64,000 bases of DNA from the IMG/VR virus record IMGVR_UViG_3300012979_000002, positions 56,527 to 120,526 of that record. One strand, 5' to 3'. The notes beneath the pieces were generated by a model. The model searched no databases, was not told the origin of the DNA, and saw only the letters and a program-made list of their open reading frames with translations. Both the position numbers and the translations under genes were made by a program. The DNA comes from a virus. Lineage: Duplodnaviria; Caudoviricetes. Each line of letters opens with the position of its first letter. Position 1 is the first letter of the stretch. Below, in pieces: positions 52,083 through 58,266 of this stretch.

Positions 52083-53237
52083 CTACTTATCTGCGTTGAC
52101 TTTTTTAGTTTCTTTTTTCTTTGGTGCGAATGGATTAGTTCCTCCGTTAAACATAGATAGCATAGCGATAGTTGATAAACTGTCGTTATCTTTATCTCCT
52201 TTTAACATCATAGCTAATGCCATTGGGTTAGACCCTAAGTCACCATTGCTTAATGAACTAAATAACATCATTTGAGTTAAGTCGCTATTCTTGCCTTCCA
52301 TTAAAGCCATTAACATCATTGGGTTGCTGAATAAGTCTCCAGCTGATGCGAAGTTATCTCCAAACATAGAGAATACTTTTTGGAAGTATTTAATACCGAA
52401 CATAGTAGATTTTGGTATTAACACAGTTTGAGTGCAAGTTTCATAATCTACTGCTTTAATTTCATTAGTAGTATCTACGATGAAATAAGGTTTACCTTCG
52501 TGTAAAACAGTGTCTCCTACATTTACCTCTACTGCTGGTAATAAGAATAATGCGTCTTTAATGTCAAATAGCATGTTGGTTACATCTACGAATTCGTTAT
52601 TGTCTTTGTTATATACAACAAATTTACCGTTGTTTTGACTAACAGCGATACCATTCATAGATAATTTGAAGCGGTCGCTTCTAATTTTTCCGAAACCTAA
52701 GTTTCCAAATAAATTATCCATAGATTTACTTTCCTCTCTTTCGTCAGTACACATTGTGCATACTTCTTCTTTTCTTAAATCTTCTAAATATGCTAAACCT
52801 TTTTCAGTTAGAACATAATAGTCGTCGTCCTCATCATCATAATCTCTATCGCATAAGTCGCTATAAAGACTATCAATTTGAACTAAACGGTCATCTTCGT
52901 GTAGTTCTATAACTCCTACACTTACTACAAACAATTTATTGTGTGTAGCACATACATAACCTTGCTTGATGTTATATAATTCTAAGTCTGATTGGTTCAG
53001 AAATAAAGGAGTATATGATGTTGCAGGTATTGTCCCAGTATCTCTAAGTTGTTTAATGATTGGTTCAACAGCATACACATCTTCTAAGATGTTTGATACT
53101 TGACCTATAGGCATATCATCTTTAGCACATATAAGACCGGCTACTAAATCCACTTTGTCGTGAAAATATACTTGCCCATCAAATATGTCGTTTCTTTCAA
53201 TGACTACATAAGCATCTCTTAATATTTTTTCTGACAT
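52083..53237 (-). CDS. Hypothetical phage protein with NPM-rich C-terminus
   Basis: Own promoter and RBS; LSMNGIAV, NPMMLMALM repeats. Confidence 0.8.
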   Translation of the reverse strand: MSEKILRDAYVVIERNDIFDGQVYFHDKVDLVAGLICAKDDMPIGQVSNILEDVYAVEPIIKQLRDTGTIPATSYTPLFLNQSDLELYNIKQGYVCATHNKLFVVSVGVIELHEDDRLVQIDSLYSDLCDRDYDDEDDDYYVLTEKGLAYLEDLRKEEVCTMCTDEREESKSMDNLFGNLGFGKIRSDRFKLSMNGIAVSQNNGKFVVYNKDNNEFVDVTNMLFDIKDALFLLPAVEVNVGDTVLHEGKPYFIVDTTNEIKAVDYETCTQTVLIPKSTMFGIKYFQKVFSMFGDNFASAGDLFSNPMMLMALMEGKNSDLTQMMLFSSLSNGDLGSNPMALAMMLKGDKDNDSLSTIAMLSMFNGGTNPFAPKKKETKKVNADK

Positions 53238-53346
53238 ACTTGTTTCTCCTTTCTATATTATTTGTGTAATATAAAAAATGTTCTTTTTAAATTACAATTA
53301 TATTATAATATAAAAATGAACCTTCTGAGAACTTTTTAAACCTTTC

Positions 53347-54190
53347 AAAAAGTCCTTTGAAAATAAAATAACTTCGGGAGGACTATTGGATACCTCCAAG
53401 TCTTTTTCAAGATAACCGTGTATTCAGTCATAAAGTAAGGACCAGTACCTTACAAGCGTCGCATGGATTGGAGTAATATGTACCAAAACTGTTAAAACTC
53501 TCTGGTTTGTTCAGTTTCATGTTCCACATTTGTAATAATGGCTTTATTATATGCCCATGAGCCACACCGTTATACACGATTTAACACGCTTCAACCATCA
53601 GCACTCACTTACTTTCGTATTCCCGGCACGGTCATACTAAGTCTTGTGCCCGGTCGCCCATCGACCTTCCTCTTACTCATTATGCCTTCGCATACTCGCA
53701 TCAGTTCAACGACTTATTGACGGTGTTCCAACCGTTGCTACGTACCCGCTTACAGCATCCACTGTTTTTAGCGTACCGGTCCCCCGGGATATGTATCTTC
53801 CAGCACATATCAATGACATAATGAAAGAGTATAAGGCTACTACACGCATCCACTCTGGCCGGAGTTTCAGCATAGTGTGTAGAGAGGAGTGGTTACCTCC
53901 AACATATAATGTTCCTCCTTTTTCTTAACTACTACGGATTTATGCACGCTGCCCATTGCTTCCTTATTTCAACCGCGCTAGGTCTTGCCTTTGGATTGTT
54001 TGCGACGCCAACTCGCACATCTCCTTTGACCTCGGAATCAATGGCACCTTACACTTGTTATCTCGACAGCCCCTCTCCCTCGTTCTTCCGAACTCCTGAC
54101 GTAGCTTTTGGCATCGTGTGAAAAGGCACTCTTAGGGCGAGACCACCCTTGTTCGAGTAACAAAGTTATTTTATTTTCAAAGAACTTTTT
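53347..54190 (-). ncRNA. Large structured ncRNA (~790 nt) enclosed by a 28-bp leader/trailer stem with a boxA-like sequence
   Basis: No credible ORF; raised GC; many hairpins; inverted repeats at 53347-53374 and 54163-54190; own promoter. Confidence 0.7.
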
Positions 54191-54205
54191 AATTTTACAC
54201 TTAAA

Positions 54206-54234
54206 ATTATATCATAATTTAGACCTAATTTCAA
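54206..54234 (-). promoter_or_regulatory. Sigma-A promoter of the large ncRNA
   Basis: TTGAAA-17-TATAAT with extended TG. Confidence 0.8.
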
Positions 54235-54262
54235 GTCTTTTGAAATATTTTTTTATAAAAAA

Positions 54263-54336
54263 TGGAGGGCCCAGTAGGAGTTGCACCTACGCTCAGGGAG
54301 TTGCAGTCCCTTGCCTTACTACTTGGCTATAGGCCC
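54263..54336 (-). tRNA. tRNA-Cys(GCA)
   Basis: Cloverleaf, anticodon loop CTGCAAC, encoded CCA. Confidence 0.9.
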
Positions 54337-54344
54337 AGGAAGTA

Positions 54345-54848
54345 TTACTTGATTAAATCTTGAAGTAATACTGGTTTGTAGTCCCAAAGTTCTACACAAG
54401 CACAAATATGGTTTTCGTCATTAGTTGGTTTGTCATGTTGGTGACCATAAATGTTTAAATAATGTGTATCCTTTTCTGGCACTCTGTGGTGTGAGAAGTG
54501 AATAGTTTCGTTTAGGTCGTCAAAGTGAATAATGACTTCCTCTTTATAAACTTGGATAAACTGTCCTTCAGTATAAGTAGATTTAGACCCGTGGTCATGA
54601 TTACCCATTACTAATATTTTTTTACCTTTTAATTGTTGACCCCATTTAATGATGTCCTCTCTTGACCCTAGGGCAAAATCCCCTAGACAAATAACAGTAT
54701 CATCATCGTGAACAACGGAGTTCCAGTTTTCAATGAGAGCCTTGTTCATTGACTCCACATTGACGAAAGGTCGATTGCAATACCCAATAATGTTTTCATG
54801 TCCCAAATGCAAGTCAGAACAAACATATACTTTTGACATACGAATCAC
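54345..54848 (-). CDS. Calcineurin-like metallophosphoesterase
   Basis: SDLHLGH, LGDF, GNHD, GHQH. Confidence 0.9.
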   Translation of the reverse strand: MIRMSKVYVCSDLHLGHENIIGYCNRPFVNVESMNKALIENWNSVVHDDDTVICLGDFALGSREDIIKWGQQLKGKKILVMGNHDHGSKSTYTEGQFIQVYKEEVIIHFDDLNETIHFSHHRVPEKDTHYLNIYGHQHDKPTNDENHICACVELWDYKPVLLQDLIK

Positions 54849-54896
54849 TCCTTTTTTAATTTATTACAATAATATTTTATCAAATTATTTAGCGTT

Positions 54897-55412
54897 TTAC
54901 AAGTCTTTTAGTTTAGAAAACGCAGCTCTAAATTCGTGAAAACCAAGACCTGTGTATGTGTCGCATTTAATTAGTTTGTCTTTCAAGTTATCCATGTCGC
55001 TATCGTCATCTAAGATAACGAAGTTTGGCCATTGGTCCCCATAATTATTGTTTAAGTAAGTTGTAATCTCCATACCTCTAGTTCTATCAGGGATATAACT
55101 TAAAGATGGAGTACATCCTATGATTTCTATTTCGGGCAATAAACCACTGTTAGTTAGTGTTTCTTTTAGTTCTTCTAAGGTTAAAGATGTTCGCCAAGTA
55201 GATGATATGACTATTTTAGCACCGGTTGTTTTACACAACAGGTTTAGCCACATAACCGCTTGTCTATTTGAAACTCTTTTATGGTTAGGACTGTTAATAC
55301 AATAATAAAAGCCATCTTCATCAGGGGAAGGTCTCCCTCCCTCAATGGGTTCGGTATCTACAATGATTGTATTTAATACCCCATCTATGTCTAAAAAGAT
55401 TAGGTTATTCAT
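54897..55412 (-). CDS. HAD-family phosphatase (Swiss-army-knife RNA-repair type)
   Basis: IFLDIDGVLN, IVISSTWR, RG.EI, ILDD. Confidence 0.85.
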   Translation of the reverse strand: MNNLIFLDIDGVLNTIIVDTEPIEGGRPSPDEDGFYYCINSPNHKRVSNRQAVMWLNLLCKTTGAKIVISSTWRTSLTLEELKETLTNSGLLPEIEIIGCTPSLSYIPDRTRGMEITTYLNNNYGDQWPNFVILDDDSDMDNLKDKLIKCDTYTGLGFHEFRAAFSKLKDL

Positions 55413-56301
55413 TAGTCCACAACCTTGGATACATATACTCTCTAACTGCGGCTTTACGACTATCTTTAATAAGATAATCAACTAAAATTTCTAGTAGAAC
55501 TAATGGATGGGCATTTCTGCCTTCCAATTTGAAATTAGAAAAACCCATAGGAATGTAAGTATTTTCTATATCTAATGGAGAGATGTAGTGATTTTGAGTT
55601 CGAGCCTTTGCATAAGAACAAACTCCCCCATCACAAAAACTAAAACTAGTTTCCAGTCCAGACTCTAGCTGATTACGAGATGTTTCCTTGTAATGCTCTG
55701 CCTTGTTTGGACAGTCTGCATAGCAGGTAGAATTACATAATAATTCACATTTGTCTTTATGCTCTATGTTGTTTAAAAAATCAAAATCTCTGTTGTGGCT
55801 AAGGTCCAAAACGGTTAGGTAGTAATTTTTATTTATTTCTTCAAGTTGCTTGTCTTTGTCAGTTATTGTCTTTGTAGTTGAAGAAATGTAACGATACCTG
55901 TCACCATACTTATCACGCAAATGTTTCTCTAATGCTGGGCTATTACAAATAATTTCGTTATGACCAGTACAGAAAATGTCTGCTACCAAATTACAATAGG
56001 TGTCTAATGTATGTTGTTCTTCTAAAAGACAGTTGGTGAATGTTAAACGAACAGGTATTTGATGGTATTCCATAAATTCCCTGATACTTTCTAACTGCAC
56101 TTTATTTGGAGCAGGTATCATAACATTATTACGCCCTCCGTTCCAAATACAATTTGGAGCACCATAAATGGAACCAAATTTTACATTGTCTTTTAATACA
56201 CTACCGTCTGCCTCAAGCATTTCCATAAAAGGTTGCCATATAACACCAAGTTCAAAAATGCCTGGCAAGTGAAAAATTACCTCTTTACTATATCCTTCCA
56301 T
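55405..56301 (-). CDS. U32-peptidase-like Fe-S protein (possible RNA hydroxylase)
   Basis: ELL.N..C...C, FKLEGR; start moved out of the tRNA. Confidence 0.6.
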   Translation of the reverse strand: MEGYSKEVIFHLPGIFELGVIWQPFMEMLEADGSVLKDNVKFGSIYGAPNCIWNGGRNNVMIPAPNKVQLESIREFMEYHQIPVRLTFTNCLLEEQHTLDTYCNLVADIFCTGHNEIICNSPALEKHLRDKYGDRYRYISSTTKTITDKDKQLEEINKNYYLTVLDLSHNRDFDFLNNIEHKDKCELLCNSTCYADCPNKAEHYKETSRNQLESGLETSFSFCDGGVCSYAKARTQNHYISPLDIENTYIPMGFSNFKLEGRNAHPLVLLEILVDYLIKDSRKAAVREYMYPRLWTNE

Positions 56302-56317
56302 ATTATCACCTCTAAAA

Positions 56318-56394
56318 TGGCGTCCCCATAGGGATTCGAACCCCAAACCTTTTGGTCCGTAGCCAAACGCTCTATCCAATTGAGCTATGGAGAC
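56318..56394 (-). tRNA. tRNA-Arg(ACG)
   Basis: Cloverleaf, loop CTACGGA, encoded CCA. Confidence 0.93.
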
Positions 56395-56397
56395 ATC

Positions 56398-56588
56398 AAT
56401 GGGCAGGATTTAAACCCGCCCCATGCGAGAAAAAATGAAACTTATAGGTCAGGGTTCCCGGGCCGCCTGTTCCGGGATACGACACATCGGCTCAATAGCC
56501 AGAAGAAATTATCCGTCTAACTAACAATCTTACGATTGGCCTACCCTTAAGCAGCATTGCTGCCGGCACTGGAAGCGGACTTTCCTAG
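56398..56588 (-). ncRNA. Putative structured RNA ending in a T-arm mimic
   Basis: Hairpins GCAGC/GCTGC, CAATC-GTAA-GATTG, CCCGG/CCGGG and GGGCGGG-TTTAAAT-CCTGCCC. Confidence 0.5.
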
Positions 56589-56589
56589 T

Positions 56590-56823
56590 TTAACCCTGTC
56601 TGTGTAAAAGTTCTTGATAACGCATTTCTACTGCCTTAGCTCTATCTTCTACATCTAAATCCATAGTGTCAGCTATAGCTCTAAGTTTTAATTGCCAATC
56701 GGCATATTTCTTCGGACCATCGTCCTTGGTTCTATATACTATTTTGTTTTCTACCACTTCTTCTTTTGGTTTATTGAAGAACGGTTTCTTTGGTTTCTTG
56801 TGATACTTGTTTCTTGGTTCCAT
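56590..56823 (-). CDS. Basic hypothetical protein
   Basis: AAGGAGG RBS; TTGACA..TGATATAAT promoter. Confidence 0.75.
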   Translation of the reverse strand: MEPRNKYHKKPKKPFFNKPKEEVVENKIVYRTKDDGPKKYADWQLKLRAIADTMDLDVEDRAKAVEMRYQELLHRQG

Positions 56824-56892
56824 ATTTTTCCTCCTTTATCATTTCACAATAATATTATATCATATAAAAATGTTTCTGTCAATTATAAAAAA

Positions 56893-56966
56893 TGGCAGGG
56901 GCAGTAGGAATTGAACCCACATCCACGGTTTTGGAGACCGTCATTCTACCTTTGAACTATACCCCT
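56893..56966 (-). tRNA. tRNA-Trp(CCA)
   Basis: Cloverleaf, loop CTCCAAA, encoded CCA. Confidence 0.93.
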
Positions 56967-56978
56967 ATGAAAGAAGGA

Positions 56979-57311
56979 TTAAATCTCCTTCATAATTTTT
57001 TCATACTCAGTTTTAATTTCTGCTTGCTTCCTATCAGCCAAGTCTTTTATATAAGTTAATCTATTAACTTCATCTGTCCACTTGGCAACAATAATGTTAG
57101 CAAACTTTAAGTCGTCTTCAGCTGCTTTGCTTAGCTTTTGGTAATATTTATCCCAAGCTCTAGTATTTGCTATACTAATACCTAGTTCTTCATTCCAAGT
57201 ATCAGTTTCGTGACAAATTGCTTTACCTCTTACGCATATACCGTTAGCTTCGTTAGTTAATACTACCACTGCTATACGCTTTTCAGCATTAGTAAAAATC
57301 TGTTTTCTCAT
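56979..57311 (-). CDS. Hypothetical phage protein
   Basis: G.A.CH..D.WNEE.G..IA motif; AAGGAG RBS. Confidence 0.75.
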   Translation of the reverse strand: MRKQIFTNAEKRIAVVVLTNEANGICVRGKAICHETDTWNEELGISIANTRAWDKYYQKLSKAAEDDLKFANIIVAKWTDEVNRLTYIKDLADRKQAEIKTEYEKIMKEI

Positions 57312-57324
57312 TGGTTCTCCTTTC

Positions 57325-58266
57325 CTATCCACGATAGCGAATAGTGAATGTATCTGTTGTTCCTGCAGTCGCATAGCTGTATACCCTCATTCCTTCAGCA
57401 TCATTAAACCAAATGCTTTCTGGTGTTGGGTCATTAGGCTTAGTCGCAGTTATTGTTTCTTCTTCGTCATCTTTTGGATAGTCTTCTATTACTAGCACAT
57501 TTACTTTCTTTGTGTAATTAGTGCAACCATCTATAGCAATCTTATTTCCATTTACCACAGGTGCGTGTTCGTCAGTGTTACCATAACTTACAATACCCCT
57601 TGGTTCTGTTGGTTCTAAGAAATATAGAAAATTACCTAATTCTTGTGGCTTATACCCATGCTCTTTCATTTGATTTCTTACACGAAAAGCATGATGATGC
57701 CCTATAACTACTCCTTTGTTATGAACATTATGGATTTGTTGGAAACTGTCTTCTATGTCCCATAACATATAATGTTCATCGGTATCTTTCCAGTTTTCTA
57801 AATTAGGATTGATGCCGGCATGACAAAAGATAAAGTTCTTTGTTTCAAAGTATAAAGGCATATTTTTAAACCATTCCAATACATGCCCCGGAATATTCTT
57901 GCGTGCTTTATCTACCAACTCTGGGTTGAATAGATTTTCAGTTATCCCGGTGAAGCTTTGGATGGTTGCTCCTAAACCGTTATGTAATATATTAAATAAT
58001 ACGAACTCCCCATCCATTCCTTTCTCAAGATATTCTTGGAAGAAACAATCATGGTTCCCCTTAATTGCTATGGTATTCTTAGGGCGTTCTTTTAAAAGTC
58101 TATATATATCTACACTTTTTGGTCCGCGGTCGAAAGCATCTCCACAAGACACTAAGAAATGTCTAGGGTTATTTTTATCATAACCAGCTGCTAGTAACGC
58201 CTCCCTTAAGGCGTCAAGTTCACCGTGTACATCGCTAAAAACGAAATATTTATTAGTCTGTTTCAT
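57325..58266 (-). CDS. Metallophosphoesterase (Ser/Thr-phosphatase-like)
   Basis: SDVHG, GDAFDRG, GNHD, HAG, GHH. Confidence 0.9.
   Translation of the reverse strand: MKQTNKYFVFSDVHGELDALREALLAAGYDKNNPRHFLVSCGDAFDRGPKSVDIYRLLKERPKNTIAIKGNHDCFFQEYLEKGMDGEFVLFNILHNGLGATIQSFTGITENLFNPELVDKARKNIPGHVLEWFKNMPLYFETKNFIFCHAGINPNLENWKDTDEHYMLWDIEDSFQQIHNVHNKGVVIGHHHAFRVRNQMKEHGYKPQELGNFLYFLEPTEPRGIVSYGNTDEHAPVVNGNKIAIDGCTNYTKKVNVLVIEDYPKDDEEETITATKPNDPTPESIWFNDAEGMRVYSYATAGTTDTFTIRYRG

What the first reader, a model, noticed from the sequence alone, without database searches (positions are those of the whole stretch)
53347..54234. ~790-nt noncoding RNA packaged like an rRNA, with boxA and a 28-bp processing stem
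Seen: a near-consensus sigma-A promoter (54206-54234) drives a leader AAAAAGTTCTTTGAAAATAAAATAACTT that pairs over 28 bp (one G-U) with the trailer at 53347-53374. The stem encloses a GC-enriched, hairpin-rich, ORF-free segment next to a tRNA array. Established: GTTCTTTGAAAA is the boxA/processing-stalk sequence of Bacillota rrn operons, and the large RNAs GOLLD and ROOL occur in phage tRNA clusters. Inference: a large ornate RNA, possibly GOLLD-class or new, that borrows host Nus antitermination and RNase III maturation. The interior does not read as 16S or 23S rRNA.
Basis: partly seen in the sequence, partly recalled or inferred. Interest (0 to 1): 0.82.

Follow-up and report, generated by a model that had tools for sequence, protein, structure and literature searches.

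The report
New giant phage RNA, packaged like rRNA
A 120-kb gut/rumen phage carries a gene for an intricately folded RNA of about 800 nt that matches no catalogued RNA family and is framed by the promoter, boxA signal and end-pairing helix that its likely hosts use to make 16S ribosomal RNA; its job is unknown.

Summary
A near-consensus host-type promoter, a GTTCTTTGAAAA box and a 28-bp leader/trailer pairing with one G-U enclose 788 nt of GC-enriched DNA with no conserved reading frame.

The RNA is real. I found 24 distinct homologues in related gut and rumen phages. On 21 full-length copies, 209 predicted pairs are 98.6% paired. Of these, 126 show compensatory changes, against 16-27 in shifted controls. 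Two pseudoknots also covary.

No Rfam 15 family matches the window or its homologues, so it is not GOLLD, ROOL, OLE, an intron, RNase P or rRNA.

The rRNA-style packaging holds up. In four Clostridia genomes that I examined, the rrn leader has the same layout: promoter, boxA-like sequence, and boxA inside the 5' strand of the 16S leader-trailer helix. In the phage family the boxA half of the helix is fixed in sequence, while the distal half varies freely.

Nus loading, RNase III cutting and the RNA's function remain inferred. The niche is the same as for GOLLD and ROOL: a phage tRNA island.

This scan has noted boxA plus leader-trailer designs before in other, unrelated phages. None resembles this RNA in sequence.

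The parts
54263..54336 (-). tRNA-Cys (GCA) directly upstream. A tRNA precedes the RNA in every homologous locus that extends far enough.
54206..54234 (-). Host sigma-A/sigma-70-type promoter TTGAAA-17-TGaTATAAT, preceded by an A/T-rich UP-like tract (about 54235-54256). The promoter is conserved across the family.
   Evidence: The UP-element reading rests on the consensus as I recall it and was not tested.
54174..54185 (-). boxA-like GUUCUUUGAAAA, inside the 5' strand of the terminal helix. It is the only exact copy in the genome.
54163..54190 (-). Leader (5') arm of the leader-trailer helix.
53375..54162 (-). Body of the structured RNA: about 33 helices, long-range closing helices (54046-54065 with 53408-53428; 53942-53950 with 53455-53464; 53901-53910 with 53546-53555), many invariant unpaired blocks, and two variable hairpin regions (53472-53536, 53429-53454).
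53853..53864 (-). Invariant CUCCGGCCAGAG hairpin whose 6-nt loop CGGCCA contains the palindrome GGCC. It was used as the search anchor. It is a possible loop-loop contact, which was not tested.
53757..53760 (-). Pseudoknot 1, 5' side: a tetraloop that pairs with 53465-53468.
   Evidence: 3 of 4 pairs change on both sides; found post hoc
53465..53468 (-). Pseudoknot 1, 3' side.
53595..53599 (-). Pseudoknot 2, 5' side: pairs with 53537-53541 across three covarying helices.
   Evidence: 4 of 5 pairs change on both sides; found post hoc
53537..53541 (-). Pseudoknot 2, 3' side.
53347..53374 (-). Trailer (3') arm of the leader-trailer helix.
53302..53331 (-). Separate promoter (TTCTCA-18-TATAAT) of the downstream 384-aa gene. 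No intrinsic terminator lies between the RNA and this gene.
52083..53237 (-). Syntenic 384-aa protein of unknown family, downstream of the RNA in most members but not all. Whether it is a partner is unknown.

Best explanation
This is a discrete gene for a large, stable, intricately folded non-coding RNA. The body is about 790 nt and the primary transcript unit about 850 nt. It belongs to a family not in Rfam. It is carried by a clade of roughly 110-130-kb phages of gut and rumen Bacillota, always beside or inside their tRNA genes.

The gene is built as a copy of the host's 16S rRNA transcription and processing unit. A strong host-RNA-polymerase promoter comes first. An rrn-type boxA follows within about 15-40 nt of the start. 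The boxA-containing leader pairs with a trailer about 790 nt downstream.

Proposed mechanism (inferred, not shown). Early in infection host RNA polymerase starts at the promoter. NusB/S10 bind the nascent boxA and convert the polymerase into an rrn-type antitermination complex. This protects the long untranslated transcript from Rho and keeps the leader near the exit channel until the trailer emerges. The 22-28-bp leader-trailer helix then forms and clamps the fold. It is cut by a double-strand RNase (RNase III), which frees the RNA from the read-through transcript into the next gene.

The mature RNA then acts in trans as a structural RNA or RNP in the phage's tRNA, tmRNA and RNA-repair island. 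This is the same niche as GOLLD and ROOL. What it binds or does is unknown.
For: A real, selected structure:
- 24 distinct homologues were found.
- On 21 full-length copies, 209 pairs are 98.6% paired. 126 have changes on both sides, against 16-27 when partners are slid. 0 of 500 shuffles reach the observed values.
- Two extra pseudoknot helices covary.
- No conserved ORF exists in any code.

Not a catalogued family:
- No Rfam 15 match other than tRNA and tmRNA in the window at gathering score, at E<=10 on the region, or at E<=1 on seven homologous loci. ROOL was also searched separately.

rrn-type packaging:
- The promoter matches 11/12 plus TG.
- The boxA differs by one base from the 13-nt B. 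subtilis rrn consensus AUGAUCUUUGAAA, which binds NusB by NMR (PMC13753749).
- In 4 of 4 complete Clostridia genomes the rrn leader runs promoter, small hairpin, boxA-like sequence. That boxA lies inside the 5' strand of the helix that pairs 27-71 nt after 16S.
- The phage boxA 12-mer occurs once in 120.5 kb.
- Across the family the boxA half of the helix carries 3.1 bits of variation on the 5' strand and 4.9 on the 3' strand. The distal half carries 10.6 on each strand. The boxA half is therefore constrained in sequence, not only in pairing.

A discrete unit linked to tRNAs:
- No terminator follows the RNA, and the next gene has its own promoter.
- In the two most divergent members the RNA sits inside tRNA arrays, one of them without the 384-aa gene. 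One member has no promoter and directly follows a tRNA.
- GOLLD and ROOL share the phage tRNA-island context (10.1101/2024.12.08.627333).
Against: There is no expression, end-mapping, Nus-binding or RNase III data, and none can be obtained with these tools.

Two of 23 members carry CUUUCUAAAAG or CUCUCUAAAAG in place of the boxA, with a compensating trailer. The helix, not the box, is therefore the universal feature.

The exact 13-mer is not the rrn boxA of the Clostridia genomes I sampled, which have GGUCUUUGAAAAG, GAACCUUGAAAAU and similar. The host is unknown.

The promoter-proximal hairpin seen in rrn leaders is clear in only about half of the family and not in the window's copy.

The family is narrow. 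Part of the sequence conservation may reflect limited divergence, since the neighbouring proteins are 40-65% identical.

The function is pure inference from context.
Confidence: 0.7

Rival explanations
1. It is a cis-acting leader. On this reading the element's job is to load an antitermination complex and/or regulate the downstream 384-aa gene and later genes, like a processive-antitermination leader. The folded RNA would not be a trans-acting product.
For: No intrinsic terminator lies between the RNA and the next gene. The 384-aa gene follows the RNA in most loci. boxA-loaded polymerase would read through downstream.
Against: The downstream gene has its own conserved promoter. The terminal helix encloses the RNA as a closed unit. 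About 800 nt with more than 120 covarying pairs and two pseudoknots far exceeds any known antitermination leader. In L097 and L082 the RNA lies inside tRNA arrays. L097 has no 384-aa gene downstream, and L082 is followed by a tRNA before the locus ends. In L115 the RNA is fused to an upstream tRNA transcript.
Confidence: 0.12
2. It is a highly divergent member of GOLLD or ROOL that the Rfam models are too narrow to detect.
For: It shares their niche (phage, tRNA island). Its size matches GOLLD at about 800 nt. It comes from rumen and gut, as ROOL does.
Against: No hit appears to either model, even at E<=10 with relaxed filters on a 1.3-kb query, nor in seven homologous loci. ROOL scored 6 candidates in the whole genome and none passed. 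The literature describes GOLLD and ROOL as distinct in sequence and structure from each other, so a shared niche does not imply homology.
Confidence: 0.05
3. The terminal helix is simply the closing stem of the fold. On this reading its resemblance to boxA is a by-product of an A/U-rich helix, and no Nus factors or RNase III are involved.
For: Two members keep the helix but not the box. The helix is A/U-rich. The sampled Clostridia rrn boxes differ by 1-3 bases from the phage box.
Against: The boxA half is nearly invariant while the adjacent half of the same helix varies freely, and the 5' strand is more constrained than its partner. The 13-mer differs by one base from the NusB-binding B. subtilis box. 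The placement of promoter, box and helix copies real rrn leaders. The 12-mer is unique in the genome.
Confidence: 0.2
4. It is not a functional RNA at all, but a decayed gene, an intron remnant or an rRNA fragment.
For: None beyond the absence of annotation.
Against: There is pervasive compensatory covariation. There are no SSU, LSU, intron or RNase P hits. No ORF remnants are conserved. The promoter is conserved.
Confidence: 0.01

Closest known systems
GOLLD and ROOL RNAs (large ornate phage/prophage RNAs; Weinberg 2009 and 2017; cryo-EM nanocages, 10.1101/2024.12.08.627333)
   Same: It is encoded by phages beside or within tRNA islands. It is hundreds of nucleotides long (GOLLD is about 800 nt) with elaborate covarying secondary structure and pseudoknots. 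Its function is unknown. It comes from rumen and gut.
   Different: It does not match either covariance model. It is closed by a long leader-trailer helix carrying an rrn boxA, which I did not find described for GOLLD or ROOL. Multimer formation is untested.
Bacterial rrn operon leader: boxA/Nus antitermination complex plus the RNase III leader-trailer helix of pre-16S rRNA (PMC10250234, PMC13753749)
   Same: It has a strong sigma-70-type promoter and a boxA close to the start. The boxA is embedded in the 5' strand of a helix that pairs with sequence just behind the enclosed RNA. I saw the same layout in four Clostridia rrn operons. The helix covaries.
   Different: The enclosed RNA is not rRNA, since there is no SSU or LSU match. 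It is a single RNA rather than a 16S-23S-5S series. The owner is a phage. Nus binding and RNase III cutting were not tested.
Kayvirus (Staphylococcus phage K) lnc001 and lnc002: abundant long non-coding RNAs next to tRNA genes (PMC9241854)
   Same: The phage is related to Herelleviridae, since the neighbouring phosphoesterase is closest to those of Bacillus Herelleviridae at about 40%. The RNA is long, non-coding and beside tRNAs, with its own early host-type promoter. It is uncatalogued in Rfam.
   Different: The family profile finds no sequence similarity in the phage K regions, and there is no boxA-like box there. The phage K RNAs have expression data but no published covariation model. This RNA has the reverse.
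Other phage boxA plus leader-trailer designs noted earlier by this scan (phiEco32-like coliphage 0.9-kb RNA; tRNA arrays framed like rRNA)
   Same: The design principle is the same: a phage RNA or tRNA block behind a host-type boxA and bracketed by a covarying long-range helix (AI notes, not checked here).
   Different: The phages and hosts are different. No sequence resemblance to this RNA was found in the scan's index.

Membership tests
GOLLD RNA (Rfam) | Match to the family covariance model (conserved 3' core) | tested here: not met
   cmscan of all 4227 Rfam 15 families gave no hit. It was run on the window at gathering score, on 53100-54400 at E<=10, and on seven homologous loci at E<=1. 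My two guessed accessions were wrong families and are not counted.
GOLLD RNA (Rfam) | Phage or prophage location near tRNA genes; length about 800 nt | tested here: met
   described for GOLLD
ROOL RNA (RF03087) | Match to the family covariance model | tested here: not met
   In a dedicated search of the whole phage genome, 6 candidates were scored and none reached E<=10. That search rang in no control genome, so it is weak on its own.
OLE, HEARO, raiA, group I/II introns, RNase P, SSU/LSU rRNA, tmRNA | Match to the respective Rfam models | tested here: not met
rrn-type transcription/processing unit | Sigma-70-type promoter followed closely by a boxA matching the host-phylum consensus | tested here: met
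   The promoter is shown. The boxA compares with the B. subtilis consensus and with four Clostridia rrn leaders, at 1-3 differences. The true host was not identified.
rrn-type transcription/processing unit | Leader-trailer helix enclosing the RNA, maintained by compensatory change | tested here: met
   The helix has 22 aligned pairs, 15 with changes on both sides, and 99.6% of cells are paired.
rrn-type transcription/processing unit | NusB/S10 binding to boxA and antitermination | not testable with these tools
   This needs a binding or transcription assay. The only indirect support is that the boxA half of the helix is sequence-constrained.
rrn-type transcription/processing unit | RNase III cleavage within the helix | not testable with these tools
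   The helix is 22-28 bp of uninterrupted duplex, long enough for RNase III by established knowledge. No cleavage data exist.
rrn-type transcription/processing unit | Encloses ribosomal RNA | tested here: not met
   There is no SSU or LSU match. It therefore works like an rrn unit but is not one.
Kayvirus lnc001/lnc002 | Sequence homology | tested here: not met
   nhmmer with the family profile against both phage K regions gave no hit at E<=10.

The most novel reading that the evidence does not exclude
A third class of giant ornate phage RNA that is a true 'pseudo-rRNA'. It would be transcribed by the host's rrn antitermination complex and matured by the ribosome-biogenesis RNases. It would then assemble, alone as a multimer or with host ribosomal or phage proteins, into a particle that acts on the translation or tRNA machinery during infection.
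Probability: 0.2. Interest if true: 0.9.

Novelty: new variant of a known kind. Interest (0 to 1): 0.78.

Why it matters
Very large, intricately folded bacterial and phage RNAs are rare. The known ones are GOLLD, ROOL, OLE and a few others, and all still lack a known function. Here is another, with unusually clean covariation support: more than 120 compensated pairs from only 21 sequences.

It comes with an explicit biogenesis hypothesis, that the phage borrows the host's pre-16S rRNA packaging. This makes it directly testable by NusB/S10 binding, RNase III cleavage and cryo-EM of the in-vitro transcript.

It also bears on a general question: how do phages make long untranslated RNAs without Rho termination and misfolding? 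Together with the scan's other boxA plus leader-trailer cases, it suggests that rrn-style cassettes are a recurrent phage solution. If the RNA forms a cage or an RNP acting on ribosomes or tRNAs, it would help explain why such RNAs live in tRNA islands.

Tried and rejected
- **Rfam accession guesses.** RF01998 and RF01687 turned out to be other families and are discarded. GOLLD is covered by the all-family scans.
- **Isolate phage genomes.** blastn in distant mode against 50,697 phage records gave no match.
- **Wider family search.** Two further motif scans of IMG/VR returned only the same 8 contigs plus chance hits in GC-rich coding DNA. A profile search with the 384-aa protein again returned only those 8. 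The genome-contig scan found one hit. It is a 119,960-bp contig in a MAG and is probably the phage itself.
- **Exact phage boxA in host rrn operons.** I asked whether the exact phage boxA 13-mer marks rrn operons in Clostridia. The matches were ordinary coding sequence or a CRISPR array, not rRNA. I then read real rrn leaders instead.
- **Slot replacement.** I asked whether related phages carry GOLLD, ROOL or another boxA-helix cassette downstream of the phosphoesterase gene. Nothing was found in 80 loci for the helix signature, or in 20 loci for Rfam.
- **Homology to phage K lncRNAs.** None was found.
- **The 384-aa neighbour as a partner.** It has no Pfam or PHROG family, and the ESM Atlas returns only viral hypotheticals with a poor model. 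I dropped it.
- **Hidden ORF under recoded stops.** One antisense frame is open for 250 codons if TAA is read as sense, but this is not conserved in the homologues.
- **RNase P resemblance.** From memory, GGAAAGUC-AUG resembles RNase P CR-I. The strand order is reversed and no RNase P model matches, so I treat it as coincidence.

Full report
**What is in the sequence**

All features lie on the minus strand. A promoter TTGAAA-17-TATAAT with an extended TG runs 54234->54206. A/T-rich DNA lies upstream of it, directly behind tRNA-Cys at 54263-54336. The leader AAAAAGUUCUUUGAAAAUAAAAUAACUU (54190-54163) is complementary over 28 nt, with one G-U, to 53374-53347. The arms are 788 nt apart. This is the best long-range inverted repeat in the 64-kb window.

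The enclosed DNA is 44-50% G+C against about 34% around it. It has no long ORF and folds better than shuffles, with z = -5. GTTCTTTGAAAA occurs exactly once in the whole genome. The window is the right half of a complete 120,526-bp phage record with direct terminal repeats.

**Is it a real RNA?**

The downstream 384-aa gene led to 8 related IMG/VR contigs. Each carries a full-length homologue of the region in the same place, with nhmmer E-values of 1e-101 to 1e-134. A motif taken from an invariant block (CTCCGGCCAGAG...TAGTAGC) then found 23 confirmed copies in metagenome contigs. One of those contigs is labelled human gut. The same motif found one copy in a 119,960-bp contig of a MAG. After removing duplicates there are 24 distinct sequences.

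On the 21 full-length ones (alignment A1, 73% mean column identity), RNAalifold predicts 209 pairs in 35 helices. Counting these pairs gives the following:
- 98.6% of cells form a standard pair, against 87% after shuffling and 39-47% when partners are slid.
- 126 pairs have changes on both sides, against 16-27 when slid.
- No shuffle out of 500 reaches any of the observed measures.

An all-against-all scan of the unpaired columns found two further helices that cross supported helices. One is a tetraloop pairing with a distant strand. The other is a 5-bp helix spanning three others. Seven of their 9 pairs are compensated. They were picked post hoc, so they are less certain than the nested helices.

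No reading frame is conserved under the standard code or with TAA read as sense. In the window's copy no long frame opens under TAG or TGA recoding either. This is a genuine, strongly selected, multi-domain structured RNA.

**Is it a known RNA?**

It is not, as far as the tools can see. Scans against all 4227 Rfam 15 families return only tRNAs and the tmRNA in the window. They return nothing on the region at E<=10 and nothing on seven homologous loci at E<=1. ROOL searched on its own also finds nothing. That excludes GOLLD, ROOL, OLE, HEARO, raiA, introns, RNase P and rRNA as modelled.

It has no relative among 50,697 isolate phage records. I found no paper in the held library that describes it. 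The large IMG/VR survey of structured RNAs reports elements averaging 67 nt.

Phage K of the Herelleviridae has two abundant, uncatalogued long non-coding RNAs beside its tRNAs (PMC9241854). They share neither sequence nor a boxA with this family.

**The rRNA-style packaging**

Three lines of evidence support the boxA reading.

First, the box resembles known boxA sequences. The family's box, (A/U)UGUUCUUUGAAAA, differs at one position from the B. subtilis rrn leader consensus AUGAUCUUUGAAA. That consensus was shown by NMR to bind B. subtilis NusB (PMC13753749). The 12-mer also opens a primer of a mycoplasma-detection PCR (PMC3019172); that this primer targets the 16S-23S spacer is my recollection, not stated in the passage I read.

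Second, I read four real rrn operons from complete Clostridia genomes. Each has:
- a TTGACA-17-TATAAT promoter;
- a short G+C-rich hairpin;
- a boxA-like GGUCUUUGAAAAG, GAACCUUGAAAAU, GGACCUUGAAAAA or GGACAUUGAAAAC, placed 86-188 nt before 16S.

RNAduplex shows that this box lies inside the 5' strand of the helix that pairs with sequence 27-71 nt after the 16S 3' end, with dG of -33 to -48 kcal/mol. The phage RNA has exactly that layout.

Third, the family itself shows a sequence constraint on the box. Within one continuous helix, the 12 box-half pairs carry 3.1 bits of variation on the 5' strand and 4.9 bits on the 3' strand. The partner toggles A/G opposite fixed U. The nine distal pairs carry 10.6 bits on each strand.

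There are caveats. Two members have CUUUCUAAAAG or CUCUCUAAAAG with a compensating trailer. The promoter-proximal hairpin is clear in only about half of the members, and not in this window. The exact phage 13-mer is not the rrn box of the genomes I sampled.

**Context**

The usual gene order is as follows:
1. a HAD 'Swiss-army-knife' RNA-repair domain protein;
2. a 167-aa metallophosphoesterase;
3. a tRNA;
4. the RNA;
5. the 384-aa protein.

The window also holds 10 tRNAs, a tmRNA and another phosphoesterase within 10 kb. The link to tRNAs is the constant feature. In the two most divergent members the RNA sits inside tRNA arrays with tRNAs on both sides. In one member it has no promoter and starts 2 nt after an amber-suppressor tRNA.

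No intrinsic terminator follows the RNA, and the next gene has its own promoter. The RNA must therefore be cut out of a longer transcript if it is to exist as a unit, which fits a processing helix.

The host is unidentified. Several features point to Bacillota:
- host-type -35/-10 promoters;
- strong Shine-Dalgarno sites;
- the boxA type;
- nearest isolate relatives of the phosphoesterase in Bacillus Herelleviridae at 40% identity;
- a MAG bin whose order-level sample shares a genome (G012) with the class-level sample drawn around a MAG titled Candidatus Scatomonas, which I take to be Clostridia, despite its 'Bacteroidaceae' title.

**Mechanism**

Shown here:
- the structure;
- its selection;
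- its novelty relative to Rfam;
- the architectural identity with pre-16S packaging;
- the sequence constraint on the box.

Inferred, not shown:
- NusB/S10 load on the nascent box and make host polymerase Rho-resistant over about 850 untranslated nucleotides;
- the complex holds the leader until the trailer appears, as proposed for rRNA (PMC10250234);
- RNase III trims the helix;
- the product is a stable trans-acting RNA or RNP.

The function is unknown. The shared niche with GOLLD and ROOL, which form RNA-only cages, makes a structural or encapsulating role the leading guess. An invariant hairpin loop containing the palindrome GGCC (53853-53864) is a candidate contact, but nothing tests it.

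**Comparison and novelty**

It works like an rrn unit but is not one, because there is no rRNA inside. It occupies the niche of GOLLD and ROOL but fails their models. I file it as a new variant of a known kind: a new family of large ornate phage RNA, with a host-rRNA-type expression and processing cassette that I did not find described for such RNAs.

This scan has noted boxA plus leader-trailer designs before in other phages, namely phiEco32-like coliphages and several phage tRNA arrays. Those are unchecked AI notes on unrelated DNA. None resembles this RNA in sequence. One paper cited there (PMC3709561) is, by its abstract, about T7 Gp2 and udk rather than boxA, so I do not use it.

**Verdict**

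A real new RNA family is close to certain. The rrn-type biogenesis is likely, at about 0.6-0.7. The function is open.

Noticed in passing
L115:9696-9783 (minus), a relative's locus: A tRNA with anticodon CTA (an amber suppressor, which ARAGORN calls 'Pyl') lies directly upstream of the RNA, which starts 2 nt after it with no promoter of its own. This relative may read TAG as sense.
   Followed up: no
L121 (CAZLVK010000007.1, 119,960 bp) = G002:C7: A contig the size of the whole phage genome is binned in a MAG titled 'uncultured Bacteroidaceae'. Yet the sample drawn from the MAG's order shares a genome (G012) with the class-level sample drawn around a MAG titled Candidatus Scatomonas, which I take to be Clostridia. 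The title or the bin is probably wrong, and it should not be used as a host assignment.
   Followed up: partly
L143-L146 (rrn operons of four Clostridia genomes): In all four, the rrn leader boxA-like sequence lies inside the 5' strand of the 16S leader-trailer helix, just after a promoter-proximal G+C-rich hairpin. The 16S-23S spacers carry a second box (ACAUUGAAAAC or ACCUUGAAAAC).
   Followed up: partly
window 52083-53237 (minus): The syntenic 384-aa protein has a variable N-terminal part, an acidic DYDDEDDD stretch, a well-conserved core (residues about 166-300) and a Met/Leu/Ser/Asn/Pro-rich repetitive C-terminus (SNPMMLMALM..., SNPMALAMML...). It has no family in Pfam or PHROGs, and the ESM Atlas model is poor.
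   Followed up: partly
L155 (phage K NC_005880.2, 13595-14229 minus; lnc001): By eye, the ends of the published phage K lnc001 region can pair (AUAGGUGUUAGACA with UGUCGGACACCUAU). This abundant tRNA-adjacent phage RNA may therefore also be closed by a terminal helix. It has no boxA.
   Followed up: no
L091 and L099 (both from Ga0310690_10000302, 113,304 bp): One metagenome contig carries two copies of the phosphoesterase-tRNA-RNA region that are only 77-94% identical. It looks like an assembly joining two strains at the contig ends rather than a true duplication.
   Followed up: partly
window 54345-58266 (minus): The RNA sits in an RNA-maintenance island: a 167-aa phosphoesterase (phrog_547), a HAD_SAK_2 RNA-repair domain protein, a 313-aa calcineurin-like phosphoesterase with a weak match to an RNA-ligase PHROG, several tRNAs and a tmRNA.
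   Followed up: partly
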